In this document: piece after piece, positions 21,812 through 36,710 of the stretch
Layout of the letters: every line of letters begins with the position of its first letter
How positions within the stretch are numbered: position 1 is the first letter of the stretch
Position numbers and translations under genes: made by a program
Origin: a virus
Taxonomy: Duplodnaviria > Caudoviricetes
DNA length: 64,000 bases
Direction: 5' to 3' (one strand)
IMG/VR virus record: IMGVR_UViG_3300037067_023527
Span: 32,001 to 96,000 of that record
Notes under the pieces: model-generated
The model's database searches: none
Told to the model about the DNA's origin: nothing
Seen by the model: the letters and a program-made list of their open reading frames with translations, nothing else

Positions 21812-21886
21812 GGCGGGGTGGAGCAGAGGTAGCTCGTTGGGCCCATAACCCAAAGGTCGCGAGTTCAAATCTCGCCCCCGCTCCCA
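21812..21886 (+). tRNA. tRNA-Met(CAT), initiator-like
   Basis: cloverleaf; GGG/CCC anticodon stem; loop CCCATAA; TTCAAAT; encoded CCA. Confidence 0.92.
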
Positions 21887-21887
21887 T

Positions 21888-21963
21888 GGGCTGATCGTCC
21901 AATTTGGCAAGACACCTGATTTGCATTCAGGAGATCGGGGTTCAAGTCCCCGTCGGTCCACCA
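21888..21963 (+). tRNA. tRNA-Ala(TGC)
   Basis: G3:U70, anticodon arm CCTGA-TTTGCAT-TCAGG, A73, CCA. Confidence 0.93.
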
Positions 21964-22496
21964 GCAATCATAGGAGCTAACTTTGGCCAAAAAATTCATT
22001 CTTAGGCGAATCTATCTATGGTTTCGCGCTCGGTGGATGCTGCACAAGACTCTCATGAATGACAAGACCGCGCTCGAGCTGGTAAAAGACAGGGAAAAGG
22101 CCCTCATGGATAGAGAAGTCCTTAGATTCATTTCGCAACGGCAGTGCAGCGCAGTGCGCCAGGAGCAATGCATTGTGGAGAAGCCGAAGGATCTAAAAGA
22201 TTGGTGCCCGCGGTGCATAGCCTTGGATCACTTGGTCAATTATAGGGGATAAAATGGAAAAGCTTCAGTCTCCAGACGTCACTGTCCCTGCCATTGTGCA
22301 AGATCCAACGGAGCCGTGTCCGGTATGTTGTTTTGTGCCCACCGGAGGGGATACGCCGATTCTTCTTCGATGGAGAAGGCTAACTATAGGCCCGAGAGAA
22401 GAAACGGTTTATTGGCTTAGCGATGCCGGAGTATGGATATGCAAGGCTTGTCATCCTCCGGGGCATCCAGATTTGGTCAAAAGGGAAATAACTATT

Positions 22497-22572
22497 CGGG
22501 GCGTGGCCAAGCGGGAAGGCTCTCGGCCTGGGACTGAGGAATGCGCTGGTCCGAATCCAGCCGCTCCGACCA
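22497..22572 (+). tRNA. tRNA-Pro(TGG)
   Basis: C1-G72 acceptor CGGGGCG/CGCTCCG, CTCGG-CCTGGGA-CTGAG, T arm GCTGG-TCCGAAT-CCAGC, CCA. Confidence 0.85.
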
Positions 22573-22601
22573 TGGAAGAATTTATTATATAGTGGTGAAG
22601 T

Positions 22602-22772
22602 ATGCCGAGAGTAGTAACGAAGCGGTGTAACAGGTGGGGGACTGGCAAAGAACTTGTTGGAAAAAACAAGACTATTGAAAGATCCCTTCTTCGCATTGAA
22701 CGCAGTGATCGTTGGCGCCGAGACAGAAATAAGCGCCGGCGGGAAAGGCAGAAGTTGAATGGAAGACCTTAA
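22602..22772 (+). CDS. small basic protein (56 aa, below ORF-track cutoff)
   Basis: MPRVVTKRC...RRRERQKLNGRP, translated by hand. Confidence 0.4.
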   Translation: MPRVVTKRCNRWGTGKELVGKNKTIERSLLRIERSDRWRRDRNKRRRERQKLNGRP

Positions 22773-22944
22773 GACTGGAGATGTTGTCAGGTTGAATAGC
22801 GGTGGACCTAAAATGACGGTAGAAAAGGTTCTCCTGGACGATCATTCTAACCGTATCATCCGATGCGCTTGGATGGATGATCCTGGGGCAATGCAGGTTC
22901 AAAGGGGTGAGTTTTACGAAGCAGAGGTAAGTAAAATCGCGTAA
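22759..22944 (+). CDS. DUF2158/YodC family protein
   Basis: LKTGDVVRLNSGGPKMTV...C.W. Confidence 0.85.
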   Translation: MEDLKTGDVVRLNSGGPKMTVEKVLLDDHSNRIIRCAWMDDPGAMQVQRGEFYEAEVSKIA

Positions 22945-22945
22945 G

Positions 22946-23034
22946 GGAAGGGTCGCCTAACGGTATGGCACCCGGTTGCTAACCGGACGCTGGGGAAACC
23001 CGGCATAGAGGTTCGAGTCCTCTTCCTTCCGCCA
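22946..23034 (+). tRNA. tRNA-Ser(GCT)
   Basis: long variable arm, loop TTGCTAA, G73, CCA. Confidence 0.93.
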
Positions 23035-23294
23035 ATATCAGGATCAAATAATGAAGAATCTACGTCAAGTATGGGTCATCGAAGTGAGAGTAAATAAAGG
23101 ACCATGGATACCGGTTGAATCTAGGCTAACAAGATCTATGGCAAGGACAAGTTGCCATAATCTGCGTCCGCAATTCAACAAAAGGTTGAGCCGATTGCGG
23201 GTTAGTAAATATATTCCGGTTCCATAATTCAGGGGCCCTGCGAATAGGGAGCGCGGGTAAGCGGAAACTACATCCCTTTAAAACGGCCTCTTAA

Positions 23295-23370
23295 GGTTCC
23301 ATCGTCTAGTGGCCCAGGATGTCTGACTGTCGATCAGAGGACACGGGTTCGAATCCCGTTGGGACCGCCA
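23295..23370 (+). tRNA. tRNA-Asp(GTC)
   Basis: GGTTCCA/TGGGACC acceptor, TCTGA-CTGTCGA-TCAGA, G73, CCA. Confidence 0.93.
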
Positions 23371-33938: not shown

Positions 33939-34877
33939 ATGCCGCTAACACCGGAACTCGAAGCGTTGCTCGGCAAAGTTGCCGATCCGACGAAACGAGA
34001 AGGGTTGCGCAAACAATTGGAAGATCCTACCTTGCTGGATTTCGGCAAGGAATTGTCGGCCGGTTATCTGCGTCAATCCGAATTTTCTCGAAAGATGAAT
34101 GAAATAACCGAAGCCGACAATGTTCGCAGAGCCGCCTATGATAAGGGATTGGGCTGGGTAGAACAGAATCGGGCCAACTACACCCAGGCCGTAAAAGAGC
34201 GGGAAGCCGCCATTGAAAAGGCCAAAGCCGCAGAAGCCAGAGCCGCAGAACTGGCAAAGGGATCCAATCCATCGGCAACGAATACTACCATCGAAGACAT
34301 TAACATGTCGGATGACAACGCCGTTGCGAGAGCCATCAAAGAGGCTCGCACGGATGCTGCCAATGCCCGTCTGGAAGCTCAACGATTAGCCGGCGTGGTA
34401 ACCAAAATCAATACGATGCTGGATAGCGGGGAATTGCTTACCACAAAGCAATTCCAGGATGAAGCCGGAAAACAGCTTGAAGCTTATTCCCGTGCAACCA
34501 TGGACGTTATGGGAACGATGCAGAGGGCAAAGTCTGAATTTGGCCTCGACCTTGATCGCGATGCGTTGTTGAGAGAGTCGGCAAATTACAACGGAGACCT
34601 CTCGAAAGCTTACGAAAAGCTCACATCCGATGCCCGGATGGAAAAAATCAAAAATGATATTCGGGCTGAATTGCAGAAGGAATTTGACGCCAAACAACAG
34701 GCGACCCAGGGAAACCCCCTCGCTGCCGGCGCGCCGCCCATTATGGGGCCACTGCAGCAAATGGTTTATCAGTCTAAGAATACTGAATCGCAGATTGATC
34801 CGAATATTCCAGCGGATGGATCGCATCGGCTTGCTCATGCGATTGCCGCTGAGCTTCGCGCTGAAGGAAAGTATTAG
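33939..34877 (+). CDS. putative capsid scaffolding protein
   Basis: helical; GYLRQSEFSRK motif; immediately before the capsid gene. Confidence 0.7.
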   Translation: MPLTPELEALLGKVADPTKREGLRKQLEDPTLLDFGKELSAGYLRQSEFSRKMNEITEADNVRRAAYDKGLGWVEQNRANYTQAVKEREAAIEKAKAAEARAAELAKGSNPSATNTTIEDINMSDDNAVARAIKEARTDAANARLEAQRLAGVVTKINTMLDSGELLTTKQFQDEAGKQLEAYSRATMDVMGTMQRAKSEFGLDLDRDALLRESANYNGDLSKAYEKLTSDARMEKIKNDIRAELQKEFDAKQQATQGNPLAAGAPPIMGPLQQMVYQSKNTESQIDPNIPADGSHRLAHAIAAELRAEGKY

Positions 34878-35056
34878 CAGTCTCAACCCGATCGGGGAAG
34901 GCTCCCCCGATCGGGGCACCGCCGGTCGACCGGAGCCACAATGGAAGCCCACGGGCGGAACCAGAGTGGAAGGTAGCGACAAACAAGGTGAGTGCACAGT
35001 AAGAGCCAATTAAGTGCATTTACGGTGTTTGTTCAACTTAACTCAAGGAGAGTCAA

Positions 35057-36710
35057 ATGCTTACGTGGGATTAAAATTGAGTATGGTCCCACTCAAACTT
35101 CGCTATATGCTGGAACAGCCTAAAGCCAAGGATGCCAATGAGCGAAAATTCCGAGGATAAGACAATGGCCAATCAGCAGGAAACAGATATAGCATGGCTT
35201 GCAGGTATCTTCGATGGAGAAGGTACGATATCGGTGACAAAGAACAATGGGACAAAAAATCCCGAATGGAATTGCCGGAAAACAGATATGGCTATAGGGA
35301 ACGGTGACGAGAGAATTATTTTGAGGGCAGTACAAATATTAGAATCTCTCGGAATCCGTCCATATTTGACATGTGCTGAGCCGGCAAGTCACCAGAGGCT
35401 AAAACGGTGGAGAATTGGCGTTACCAAAAGAGCTGATGTAAGAAGGCTCACAGAGTTGCTTATTCCCCAACTGACGGCCAAAAAAGAACAAGCCATTTTA
35501 TTGAATCGGTATGTGACCTCAAGGATCGAACGTGAAGAGAAGTTAGGGATGACACGTAAGAATCCGGTTTCTTTGGATGAAGTATCTTTGGGGAATCAAA
35601 TACTAGACTTCAATAATCCACTATCTGGCCCCTCACAGACTGCACGCGAAGACGCAAGAAATAGCTTGCGGATGATACAGTCGGGCCTCATGTGAAAGCA
35701 TGAGAGGTCAGCAGAAATGACTGGCCCCTTCGCTCGCGCGAAGAGTAACAAAAGCGGACATAACTGGAAAAGTCCAGCGGCATATTATCCCTCGGTTGAT
35801 CGATGTCGTTTATAAATCGTCACCCGTCTTCACCCGTCTTCGGACACGGTGCGCGGAGCGATTTGAGGGCGGCACCAAGATCAGCCAACCGATCGGATAT
35901 GCCGAGCTGAATGGAGACGCGTACAAACGCGGCGGTCAGTTCAAAACTGAGTACGTCCAAACCGATACCAACATTGAGGTCGCGCCAAAGTTTTACTATG
36001 TCACGATCTCTGCCTATGGACCGGACAATGTTCTGGCTCGTGGGCCCGAAGCCGCAATGTCTTACATCGAATCCAAATTTGTGAATGCTTCTGGAAAAAT
36101 GGCCAAACTCCTGGCCCAGAACATGTATCGGGATGGAACTGGCGTTGTATCCGATACCATTCACGTCGATGGATTCCTGGCTGCACTGGACAATGGTTTG
36201 ACCTACGGGTCCTATGCAGGAGTGGATCGTAGCGATCTCGGTATCGCGGACGGCACCAACAACCAGGGGATTAACGCGTATGTTAATACCCTGTCGACCT
36301 TCACCATGAAGGGCATGCAGACCGCCTATGGAGCTTCTTACATGGGCAACGAGCATGTGGATATGATCGCGACCACTCAGGATTGCTGGAACCTGATTTA
36401 CAACAAAATTCTCCCGCAGCAACGATTCGAGGCGACGGGCGAAGATGTTGCCAAAATCGGTTTTCAGGCTCTTCGGTGGAATGGAGTCACCATCGTGGTC
36501 GACCAGTATTGCCCGGCCGGCTACATCTGGGGGCTCAACACGAATTACATCCAGTTCTGGGTTTCCACTCTTCCGCGTTACCAGTTCGGCTGGACCGGTT
36601 GGAAAGAGGCGCAGGGCACAGATGACATGGTCGGACAGTATTTGTGGAGTGGCAACTATCTGGTTACCAACCCACGCATGATGTTCCAATTGAACGGAGT
36701 TACGGCCTAA
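35057..36710 (+). CDS. major capsid protein, spliced join(35057..35071,35757..36710), 322 aa
   Basis: RBS AAGGAG; exon1 MLTWD is in frame with exon2 DITGKVQRHIIPRLIDVVYKSSP...; GFQALRWNGVTIVVDQYCP. Confidence 0.88.
35072..35756 (+). mobile_element. group I self-splicing intron
   Basis: P1 GTGGGAT/GTCCCAC with U.G at the 5' splice site; P3 CTTCGC/GCGAAG; P4 TGCTG/CAGCA; P7 GACTG/CAGTC; P8, P9; terminal omega-G 35756. Confidence 0.92.
35165..35695 (+). CDS. intron-encoded LAGLIDADG homing endonuclease (alternative start 35132)
   Basis: IAWLAGIFDGEGTI; LIPQLTAKKEQA. Confidence 0.9.
   Translation: MANQQETDIAWLAGIFDGEGTISVTKNNGTKNPEWNCRKTDMAIGNGDERIILRAVQILESLGIRPYLTCAEPASHQRLKRWRIGVTKRADVRRLTELLIPQLTAKKEQAILLNRYVTSRIEREEKLGMTRKNPVSLDEVSLGNQILDFNNPLSGPSQTAREDARNSLRMIQSGLM

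What the first reader, a model, noticed from the sequence alone, without database searches (positions are those of the whole stretch)
35057..35795. Group I intron after codon 5 of the major capsid gene, with the endonuclease ORF overlapping the ribozyme core
Unspliced mRNA yields only MLTWD-stop; splicing 35072-35756 restores an N-terminus that gene callers miss. The LAGLIDADG ORF starts just before the P4 3' strand and reads through P7, P3' and P8, stopping in P9 (core creep). Capsid production would then depend on splicing, competing with endonuclease translation. Classic phage introns sit mostly in DNA-metabolism genes with GIY-YIG/HNH ORFs.
Basis: partly seen in the sequence, partly recalled or inferred. 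Interest (0 to 1): 0.7.

Follow-up and report, generated by a model that had tools for sequence, protein, structure and literature searches.

The report
Capsid-gene intron with interwoven endonuclease
The major capsid gene of this 113-kb phage is split after its fifth codon by a self-splicing group I intron whose homing-endonuclease gene is threaded through the ribozyme itself, and the same intron-endonuclease lineage turns up only in capsid genes of many unrelated phages.

Summary
No RNA data could be obtained, so splicing is inferred, not shown.

- **Junction.** Joining 35071|35757 gives an N-terminus identical to an intronless 322-aa homologue and shared by more than 90 others. The 13 codons before TTG 35796 lack a start codon but are under purifying selection.
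- **Ribozyme.** 35072-35756 folds as a complete group I intron (P1-P9.2, U·G at the 5' splice site, terminal G). P3, P5a, P6a, P7, P8 and P9 covary across relatives. ORF-less relatives pass Rfam's group I threshold.
- **Endonuclease.** The I-CreI-type LAGLIDADG ORF lies in loop L6a. It starts at an AUG inside the ribozyme core (P5 3' strand) and stops in the P9 loop, overlapping about 99 of 253 core nucleotides. Both candidate ribosome-binding sites lie in P5a.

Capsid-gene introns are already known (LittleE, Tuc2009), as is ORF-into-core extension, so the kind is not new. Three things appear new:

- The fusion is double-ended and shared across the family.
- A compensated P7 base-pair change removes an in-frame stop and lengthens the ORF.
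- All about 24 placeable members with the fused LAGLIDADG sit in major capsid genes (six families, at least 11 sites), against 5 of 22 other family members.

The scan had noted this same stretch before, not other DNA.

The parts
35045..35050 (+). Shine-Dalgarno (AAGGAG) of the capsid gene, 6 nt before ATG 35057
   Evidence: Sequence. The equivalent RBS plus ATG is conserved in L021 and L001. No such site precedes TTG 35796.
35057..35071 (+). Capsid exon 1: five codons (MLTWD), ending in U35071
   Evidence: More than 90 homologues begin M(A)LTWDD.
35072..35756 (+). Group I intron, 685 nt: a 253-nt ribozyme plus a 432-nt insert in L6a. In-frame TAA at 35072-74, terminal G at 35756.
35065..35092 (+). 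P1: 35065-73 pairs with the internal guide 35084-92, with U35071·G35086 at the 5' splice site
   Evidence: 9/9 pairs. Compensatory changes in L021 (C-G for G-C) and L001 (G-C for A-U).
35098..35103 (+). P3 5' strand (CUUCGC). Its partner GCGAAG lies at 35646-51, about 540 nt away.
   Evidence: Recovered by RNAalifold. 9 sequence variants in 11 members, 95% paired against 62% with swapped partners.
35108..35178 (+). P4 (35108-13/35173-78), P5 (35118-20/35167-69), P5a (35126-27 and 35130-32 / 35150-52 and 35155-56), P5b (35133-35/35142-44)
   Evidence: P5a has four pairs with compensated changes. Weak Rfam fragment hit at 35108-78.
35165..35695 (+). LAGLIDADG homing endonuclease ORF: 176 aa from the core AUG 35165 (SD GAGGA 35153-57). 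In-frame alternative starts at ATG 35138 (SD AAGGA 35128-32, 185 aa) and ATG 35132. Stop UGA at 35693-95.
   Evidence: Pfam LAGLIDADG_3 at 1.8e-6. Homologues. AF2 model with pLDDT 79 and Foldseek hits to I-CvuI/I-CreI/I-MsoI at probability 1.0. Acidic residue at the catalytic position of the motif.
35179..35189 (+). P6 (35179-80) and P6a (35184-89) 5' strands. Their partners lie at 35631-32 and 35622-27. The 432-nt ORF body lies between them (L6a).
   Evidence: P6a differs in sequence yet pairs in every member. ORF-less members have a short hairpin here.
35636..35683 (+). P7 (C35636, bulged A35637, 35638-42 / 35678-83), enclosing the P3 3' strand (35646-51) and P8 (35653-58/35665-70)
   Evidence: R and S elements aligned by Rfam. 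P7 has 4 covarying variants, 100% paired, with an invariant first G-C pair. P8 is wholly different in sequence but paired in relatives.
35687..35743 (+). P9 (35687-93/35698-704, GAAA loop 35694-97), P9.1 (35706-11/35721-26, conserved loop CAGAAAUGA), P9.2 (35728-33/35738-43)
   Evidence: Hairpins are conserved with compensatory changes in relatives.
35757..36710 (+). Capsid exon 2 (317 codons plus stop). TTG 35796 is an internal Leu codon.
   Evidence: phrog_9953 major head protein at 7e-25. 7 synonymous and 0 non-synonymous codon differences against L044 in 35757-35795, and L044 has CTG at the TTG position.

Best explanation
35072-35756 is a functional, mobile group I intron in the major capsid gene. 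SHOWN from sequence and comparison: the exon junction, a complete covarying ribozyme fold (P1, P3-P9.2, no P2), and an I-CreI-type single-motif LAGLIDADG ORF sitting in loop L6a and fused in frame to ribozyme core at both ends. INFERRED mechanism: the late pre-mRNA folds, and the guide sequence 35084-92 pairs with the last exon nucleotides (U35071·G35086). Guanosine attacks the 5' splice site, G35756 docks in P7, and the exons ligate to UGGGAU|GACAUA. The result is a 322-aa capsid protein translated from ATG 35057. Ribosomes that start on unspliced RNA make only MLTWD and stop at UAA 35072, and they sit on P1 while doing so. The endonuclease is translated from unspliced or excised intron RNA. 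Its two possible ribosome-binding sites are the two strands of P5a, and the G of its AUG pairs in P5, so ribozyme folding and endonuclease translation should be mutually exclusive. The homodimeric enzyme then cuts intronless capsid alleles (such as L044) in co-infecting relatives, and repair copies the intron in. The ORF's reach into the ribozyme varies by lineage. In this lineage the P7 variant GACUG/CAGUC removes the UAG that ends the ORF in relatives, so the ORF runs on to UGA in the P9 loop.
For: Junction: the predicted N-terminus is identical to intronless P0003/L044 and conserved in more than 90 homologues of 318-327 aa. There are 7 synonymous and 0 non-synonymous differences in the start-less 13 codons. 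The same intron sits at the same site in L021 and L001. Ribozyme: Rfam gives 22 bits for the split window copy, but 58.7 and 51.5 bits (threshold 50) for ORF-less relatives L036 and L033. RNAalifold recovers P3, P4, P5, P6 and P9, and on ORF-less members alone it recovers P4, P5, P5a, P6 and P7 with 7 compensated pairs. Segment folds and partner-swap controls agree. Endonuclease. Sporadic distribution: about 74 of 80 related capsid genes are uninterrupted. Stop position tracks the P7 variant: UAG at S+4 in GAUAUAGUC members, read-through to S+19..+70 in all six GAUACAGUC members. The genome is a complete 112,783-bp virus with terminal repeats, so its capsid gene must work.
Against: The window copy itself scores below Rfam's threshold. 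P10 is weak (4 bp, offset by 2 nt) and not conserved in L021. P4, P5 and P6 are nearly invariant, so they are supported by conservation, not covariation. Endonuclease activity, its true start codon and any translational gating are untested. The AF2 model does not show that the core-encoded tail is dispensable (terminal helix, pLDDT 65-75).
Confidence: 0.93

Rival explanations
1. There is no splicing. A free-standing endonuclease gene was inserted near the 5' end of the capsid gene, and the capsid is made from TTG 35796 as a 304-aa protein.
For: Gene callers produce exactly this product (P0002, 304 aa). ORF listing gives TTG 35796 as the first start.
Against: There is no Shine-Dalgarno before the TTG. 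The 13 upstream codons are conserved with only synonymous change. L044 has CTG there. A full covarying ribozyme surrounds the ORF. The join reproduces the homologues' N-terminus exactly.
Confidence: 0.03
2. The intron is real but no longer self-splices efficiently. It depends on its own LAGLIDADG protein acting as a maturase, or on a host factor, so endonuclease translation helps splicing instead of competing with it.
For: The ORF covers about 40% of the core, and the ORF-ribozyme fusion is retained across a diverse lineage. LAGLIDADG maturases are established for organellar group I introns (general knowledge; mentioned in PMC3073962).
Against: ORF-less relatives with the same core exist in many genes, so the ribozyme does not in principle need the protein. 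The core helices are intact. No bacterial or phage LAGLIDADG maturase is known to me.
Confidence: 0.12
3. The capsid-only distribution of the fused-LAGLIDADG introns is a sampling artefact or simple shared ancestry, not a real specialisation.
For: Endonucleases partly cluster by capsid family. About 10 control loci have unidentified hosts.
Against: Neither search key (ribozyme core DNA or endonuclease protein) refers to the host gene. The hosts span six PHROG capsid families with no detectable sequence similarity and at least 11 insertion sites. The same search returned DNA polymerase, tape-measure, terminase, psbA, RNR, RNAP and tRNA hosts for non-LAGLIDADG members. Fisher p is 1.5e-8 by locus and 1.2e-3 by capsid family.
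Confidence: 0.2

Closest known systems
Mycobacteriophage LittleE capsid intron (Pope et al. 2013, PMC3706429)
   Same: An intron, probably group I (U before the 5' splice site, G at the intron end), in a phage major capsid gene. It carries an I-CreI-like LAGLIDADG ORF. Splicing was shown by RT-PCR and N-terminal protein sequencing. Distribution among relatives is sporadic.
   Different: The LittleE ORF is on the opposite strand, so there is no ORF-ribozyme fusion. The intron type was left unclear. The site is not at the extreme 5' end. No family-wide capsid preference was reported.
T4 td intron with I-TevI (reviewed in Edgell et al. 2011, PMC3073962)
   Same: The ORF sits in the P6 loop of a phage group I intron. 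Its 3' end overlaps P6a/P7. The ORF's ribosome-binding site is sequestered by RNA structure, and ribosomes in the core impair splicing. A stop codon lies just inside the intron.
   Different: The endonuclease is GIY-YIG, in a nucleotide-metabolism gene. The overlap is only 20 nt and only at the 3' end. The start codon lies in the loop, not in the core.
Synechococcus lividus LSU rDNA intron with a LAGLIDADG ORF (Table 1 of PMC3073962)
   Same: A LAGLIDADG ORF overlaps P6/P7/P3/P8/P9.0/P9 of a bacterial group I intron. At 81 nt it is the largest overlap in that table.
   Different: The host is an rRNA gene on a bacterial chromosome. The ORF is inserted in P8. The overlap here is about 99 nt in the window and about 150 nt in L021, and it is at both ends.
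PhiPA3 gp210 intron endonuclease (Birkholz et al. 2024, PMC11620839)
   Same: An intron-borne homing endonuclease in an essential, conserved phage gene. It was shown to cut the homologous gene of a co-infecting phage and to give a competitive advantage. This is a possible functional model for capsid targeting.
   Different: It is an HNH nickase in a virion RNA polymerase gene of a nucleus-forming jumbo phage. No ORF-core fusion was described.

Membership tests
Group I intron (Rfam RF00028) | 5' exon ends in U forming a U·G wobble with the internal guide in P1; the intron ends in G | tested here: met
   U35071·G35086, P1 9/9 pairs, G35756. P1 covaries in L021 and L001.
Group I intron (Rfam RF00028) | Conserved core P3-P9 with the P3/P7 pseudoknot and R/S elements | tested here: met
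   Helices mapped. P3 and P7 covary. RNAalifold agrees. Segment folds agree.
Group I intron (Rfam RF00028) | Covariance-model score at or above the curated gathering score (50 bits) | tested here: not met
   The window copy scores 22 bits (E 0.004), plus an 11-bit fragment, because the 432-nt ORF splits the core. ORF-less members of the same family do pass: 58.7 and 51.5 bits.
Group I intron (Rfam RF00028) | Excision restores an uninterrupted host reading frame | tested here: met
   The joined exons equal the intronless homologue's N-terminus and its length of 322 aa.
Group I intron (Rfam RF00028) | Guanosine-dependent self-splicing of the RNA | not testable with these tools
It needs in vitro transcription or RT-PCR.
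LAGLIDADG homing endonuclease, I-CreI type (single motif, homodimer) | LAGLIDADG motif with an acidic catalytic residue | tested here: met
   WLAGIFDGEG is invariant in 16 homologues. Pfam PF14528 at 1.8e-6. It aligns to the I-MsoI motif with E at the catalytic D position.
LAGLIDADG homing endonuclease, I-CreI type (single motif, homodimer) | Alpha-beta-beta-alpha-beta-beta-alpha fold | tested here: met
   AF2 pLDDT 79, pTM 0.72. Foldseek top hits are I-CvuI, I-CreI and I-MsoI at probability 1.0, TM 0.56-0.67.
LAGLIDADG homing endonuclease, I-CreI type (single motif, homodimer) | Cleaves the intronless allele at the insertion site | not testable with these tools
   Only indirect support: intronless alleles exist (L044) and the intron is sporadic among relatives.
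ORF extension into ribozyme core ('core creep', Edgell et al. 2011) | Start and stop positions vary among related intron-ORF pairs, while the ORF body sits in a peripheral loop | tested here: met
   Starts: in L6a (L006), at the core AUG/UUG in P5' (most members; L003), in L5b (L081). L032 reads the core in another frame. Stops range from S-5 to S+73 and track the P7 variant.
Intein | The insert is in frame with the host protein and free of stop codons | tested here: not met
   TAA lies directly after codon 5, and the ORF is in a different frame from the capsid.

The most novel reading that the evidence does not exclude
The window's element belongs to an undescribed, widespread lineage of mobile group I introns. 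In this lineage an I-CreI-type endonuclease gene is fused to the ribozyme: its start codon comes from the conserved P5'/J5-4 core, and its stop often comes from the conserved S element. The lineage colonises only phage major capsid genes, hopping between unrelated capsid families. Because the endonuclease's ribosome-binding sites and AUG are ribozyme helices, the enzyme may be made in useful amounts only from the most heavily transcribed late mRNA. That would explain the capsid restriction, and the enzyme may also act as a weapon against co-infecting relatives.
Probability: 0.5. Interest if true: 0.78.

Novelty: new variant of a known kind. Interest (0 to 1): 0.62.

Why it matters
**Annotation.** Gene callers truncate this capsid protein by 18 residues. 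They do the same in every relative carrying the intron, for example the roughly 300-aa homologues P0009, P0037-42 and P0046. Rfam at its curated threshold misses the intron because the ORF splits the core. Capsid-based phage phylogenies and proteomics would inherit that error.

**Biology.** The element is an unusually clear natural series for how a protein gene and a ribozyme come to share nucleotides. About 40% of the ribozyme is also coding. The start codon is a ribozyme residue that ORF-less relatives also have. A compensated base-pair swap in P7 decides whether the ORF stops or runs on. This makes the 'core creep' hypothesis and the splicing-versus-translation conflict directly testable in one small construct.

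**If the capsid-only distribution holds up.** It would be the first intron-endonuclease lineage known to specialise on a functional class of gene and not on a sequence. It would also raise the question of whether it serves inter-phage competition.

Tried and rejected
- **Searches that found nothing.** Megablast of the region against GenBank phages gave no match. Phage-record tblastn gave only about 25%-identical capsids such as Mx8, Mx9 and BUCT555. The single-protein endonuclease query in viral contigs found nothing; the alignment query worked. Rfam at gathering threshold found only five tRNAs in the window. RF00028 over the whole phage found no other group I intron.
- **Chance hits.** The 3'-core motif scan gave one chance hit (L042, in an unrelated gene). 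22 of the 84 hits to ATGGGCAATCAGCAGG lack the P4 core and are ordinary proteins beginning MGNQQ.
- **Structure details.** P10 is only a 4-bp offset pairing, not conserved, so I do not claim it. An alternative hairpin at 35077-96 is not conserved in L021 or L001 and was dropped. MAFFT misaligns the variable stems (P1, P5a/b, P6a, P8, P9.1/9.2), so RNAalifold misses them; I tested them by folding the segments between conserved anchors. I made no subgroup assignment (IA-like or IC3-like): L033 has P7.1/P7.2-like hairpins and L036 sits in a tRNA, but no classifier was available.
- **Inconclusive test.** The AF2 check of whether the core-encoded C-terminal tail is disordered was inconclusive.
- **Rejected readings.** Intein, TTG start and translational bypass were all rejected on sequence grounds.
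Full report
**1. What is there**

The window is bases 32001-96000 of a complete 112,783-bp virus record with direct terminal repeats. A strong ribosome-binding site (AAGGAG, 35045-50) precedes ATG 35057. Five codons (MLTWD) follow, then TAA at 35072-74. The next listed capsid ORF starts at TTG 35796 (304 aa; phrog_9953 major head protein, E 7e-25). Its frame is open back to 35721 with no start codon in between. Between the two lies a 176-187-aa ORF matching Pfam LAGLIDADG_3.

**2. The splice junction is real**

- A search with 35757-36707 found more than 300 homologues. Most are 318-327 aa and begin M(A)LTWDDITGKV.
- P0003 (90% identical, 322 aa) begins with exactly the predicted join, MLTWD|DITGKVQRHIIPRLIDVVYKSS. 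The predicted product is also 322 aa (5 + 317).
- The DNA of an intronless allele (L044, 91% amino-acid identity) runs uninterrupted across the junction. In the 13 codons 35757-35795 it differs from the window at 7 codons, all synonymously. Where the window has TTG it has CTG.
- So the stretch upstream of the TTG is translated, the TTG is an internal leucine codon, and only removal of 35072-35756 can supply a start.
- L021 and L001 carry the same insertion at the same codon.

**3. The insert is a complete group I ribozyme**

Rfam's group I model gives only 22 bits (E 0.004) for 35489-35704, plus an 11-bit fragment at 35108-78. The score is low because a 432-nt ORF body splits the core.

A 21-nt motif from the 5' core retrieved relatives from viral contigs. 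These include ORF-less copies in a DNA polymerase gene (L033) and in a tRNA gene (L036). Both pass Rfam's curated threshold of 50 bits, at 51.5 and 58.7 bits.

Exact helices in the window:

| Element | 5' strand | 3' strand | Note |
|---|---|---|---|
| P1 | 35065-73 | 35084-92 | U35071·G35086 at the splice site |
| P3 | 35098-103 | 35646-51 | strands about 540 nt apart |
| P4 | 35108-13 | 35173-78 | |
| P5 | 35118-20 | 35167-69 | includes the G of AUG 35165 |
| P5a | 35126-27, 35130-32 | 35150-52, 35155-56 | holds both candidate SD sites |
| P5b | 35133-35 | 35142-44 | |
| P6 | 35179-80 | 35631-32 | |
| P6a | 35184-89 | 35622-27 | ORF body lies between the strands |
| P7 | C35636, 35638-42 | 35678-83 | A35637 bulged |
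| P8 | 35653-58 | 35665-70 | |
| P9 | 35687-93 | 35698-704 | GAAA loop 35694-97 |
| P9.1 | 35706-11 | 35721-26 | conserved loop CAGAAAUGA |
| P9.2 | 35728-33 | 35738-43 | |

The intron ends in G35756. There is no P2.

Support for the fold:

- RNAalifold on ORF-deleted cores recovers the long-range P3 plus P4, P5, P6 and P9.
- Every segment between conserved anchors folds into the expected hairpin in nearly all ten members despite different sequences.
- P3 has 9 variants in 11 members, 95% paired against 62% when partners are swapped. P7 has 4 variants, 100% paired against 82%, with an invariant first G-C pair.
- RNAalifold on 13 ORF-less relatives, without the window, returns P4, P5, P5a, P6 and P7 with 7 compensated pairs.
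- P4, P5 and P6 are almost invariant, so they rest on conservation. P10 is weak, and I do not claim it.

**4. The endonuclease and its interleaving with the ribozyme**

The protein has one LAGLIDADG motif (WLAGIFDGEG, invariant in 16 homologues). It aligns to I-MsoI with an acidic residue at the catalytic position. It models as an alpha-beta-beta-alpha-beta-beta-alpha fold (pLDDT 79). Its best structural matches are I-CvuI, I-CreI and I-MsoI. It is therefore a homodimeric I-CreI-type enzyme.

The ORF body fills loop L6a, but the ORF is fused to the core at both ends.

- **Start.** AUG 35165 lies in the stretch AUGG(G/C)CAAUCAGCAGG, which forms the P5 3' strand, J5/4, the P4 3' strand and the start of P6. 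ORF-less relatives found without reference to this AUG also carry it (L033, L034, L040 and L041 have AUG; L036 has GUG). So the ribozyme supplies the start codon and the first residues (MxNQQ).
- **Stop.** The ORF then reads P6a' through P6', P7, P3', P8 and P7', and stops at UGA 35693-95 on the P9/L9 boundary.
- **Size of the overlap.** It is 25 + 74 = 99 nt of a 253-nt ribozyme, or 126-132 nt if the in-frame ATG 35138 or 35132 is used. The largest overlap listed by Edgell et al. (PMC3073962, Table 1) is 81 nt.
- **Ribosome-binding sites.** Both candidates, AAGGA 35128-32 and GAGGA 35153-57, lie on the two strands of P5a.

**5. Start and stop positions move among relatives**

- Starts: inside L6a with no overlap (L006); at the core AUG, or UUG in L003, in most members; further upstream in L5b in L081, whose core AUG is AUU. 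L032 reads the same core nucleotides in another frame.
- Stops: where the conserved S element reads GAUAUAGUC in this frame, the ORF ends at that UAG (S+4). All six members with GAUACAGUC, including the window, read on to S+19..S+70. That C pairs with the last base of the P7 5' strand (GACUG/CAGUC against GACUA/UAGUC), so a compensated P7 change toggles the stop.
- Within the window's own clade, L021 has CGA where the window has UGA. A C-G pair in P9 has become U·G. L021's ORF runs to a UAA 8 nt before the 3' splice site.
- These are the variable extensions that the 'core creep' hypothesis predicts.

**6. Likely mechanism (inferred)**

Splicing of the late transcript is required for any capsid protein. 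With exon 1 only 15 nt long, a ribosome initiating at 35057 or terminating at 35072 covers P1. Initiation on unspliced RNA and P1 formation should therefore exclude each other. The in-frame stop just inside the intron is the usual phage arrangement (PMC3073962).

Endonuclease translation requires P5a, P5, P4 and P6 to open, so it should compete with the folded ribozyme, as shown for I-TevI and the td intron (cited in PMC3073962). None of this was tested here.

**7. Distribution**

About 74 of 80 related capsid genes in viral contigs are uninterrupted. Others in the same capsid family are interrupted elsewhere:

| Locus | Position of the interruption |
|---|---|
| L081 | one codon further in; same intron family, sister endonuclease |
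| L084 | about codon 9-14; double-motif LAGLIDADG |
| L035, L117 | about codon 24 |
| L119, L092 | about codon 86 |

The window's phage has only this one copy of the intron family and no other Rfam group I hit.

**8. A capsid-only lineage**

Of 84 examined, 62 have the P4 core upstream.

- **Members with the LAGLIDADG ORF fused at the core start.** Every one whose host gene could be named sits in a major head protein gene. That is about 24 loci, in six PHROG capsid families (9953, 1357, 267, 212, 1328, 10), at 11 or more insertion sites.
- **The remaining family members** (ORF-less, or carrying HNH or other ORFs). They interrupt DNA polymerase (5), tape-measure genes (3-4), exonuclease (2), and terminase, psbA, RNR, a RecJ-like gene, RNA polymerase, a virion protein and a tRNA (1 each). 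Only 4-5 interrupt capsid genes.
- **Statistics.** Fisher p is 1.5e-8 by locus, 2e-5 by site and 1.2e-3 by capsid family.
- **Endonuclease tree.** The window, L021, L001 and L081 form a clade (99/96). Deeper branches interleave capsid families, with about 10 label changes against a minimum of 6. That implies repeated moves between unrelated capsid genes.
- **Caveats.** The searches used exact motifs in one collection, about 10 control hosts are unnamed, and the loci are not independent.

**9. Comparison with the literature**

- Capsid-gene introns are known. LittleE was shown to splice, and its I-CreI-like ORF is on the opposite strand. Tuc2009 is also cited (PMC3706429).
- ORF-core overlap and RBS sequestration are known (PMC3073962).
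- An intron endonuclease that acts in phage-phage competition is known (PMC11620839).
- I found no report of a capsid-specialised intron-endonuclease lineage, nor of a P7 covariation that sets ORF length.

**10. Verdict**

This is a real group I intron with a mobile LAGLIDADG endonuclease. The kind is known. The double-ended fusion and the capsid-only lineage make it a new variant worth experimental follow-up.

Noticed in passing
L033:7748-8044: A second, unrelated group I intron (Rfam 86 bits) lies about 700 nt upstream of the family member at L033:8733-9000. Both sit in the same DNA polymerase (phrog_405) gene of a 216-kb viral contig.
   Followed up: partly
L036 (minus strand, about 114-364): An ORF-less member of the same ribozyme family (Rfam 58.7 bits) sits in the anticodon region of a tRNA gene on a 183-kb viral contig. 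Unlike the window's copy, it has a P2 hairpin.
   Followed up: partly
L084:400-1500; L117:700-1500; L119:780-1500; L092: The same capsid family (phrog_9953) is interrupted at other positions: by a double-motif LAGLIDADG element at about codon 9-14, and by inserts of 700-800 nt at about codon 24 and about codon 86. Rfam gives no hit at E<=0.01 for these, and their nature was not resolved.
   Followed up: partly
window 34880-34920: A strong GC-rich hairpin (CCCGATCGGGG...CCCCGATCGGG) lies directly after the upstream 312-aa gene (33939-34877) and about 140 nt before the capsid start. No T-run follows it. Rfam gives a weak partial match to Pseudomonas sRNA P10 (18.9 bits, below threshold). It could be a processing or stabilising element, or an attenuator ahead of the capsid mRNA.
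   Followed up: no
window 21812-23367: A cluster of five tRNA genes (Rfam 43-63 bits).
   Followed up: no
L034, L040 (P8 inserts): Two members of the same ribozyme family carry HNH or endonuclease VII-like ORFs in P8, not P6a, and interrupt an exonuclease gene (phrog_284). This shows independent ORF invasions of one ribozyme family.
   Followed up: partly
L135: A compact member of the ribozyme family lies next to a photosystem II D1 (psbA) exon on a 243-kb viral contig.
   Followed up: no
PHROG phrog_5046: The PHROG family that matches these I-CreI-type LAGLIDADG proteins is labelled 'HNH endonuclease'. For these members the label appears to be wrong.
   Followed up: partly
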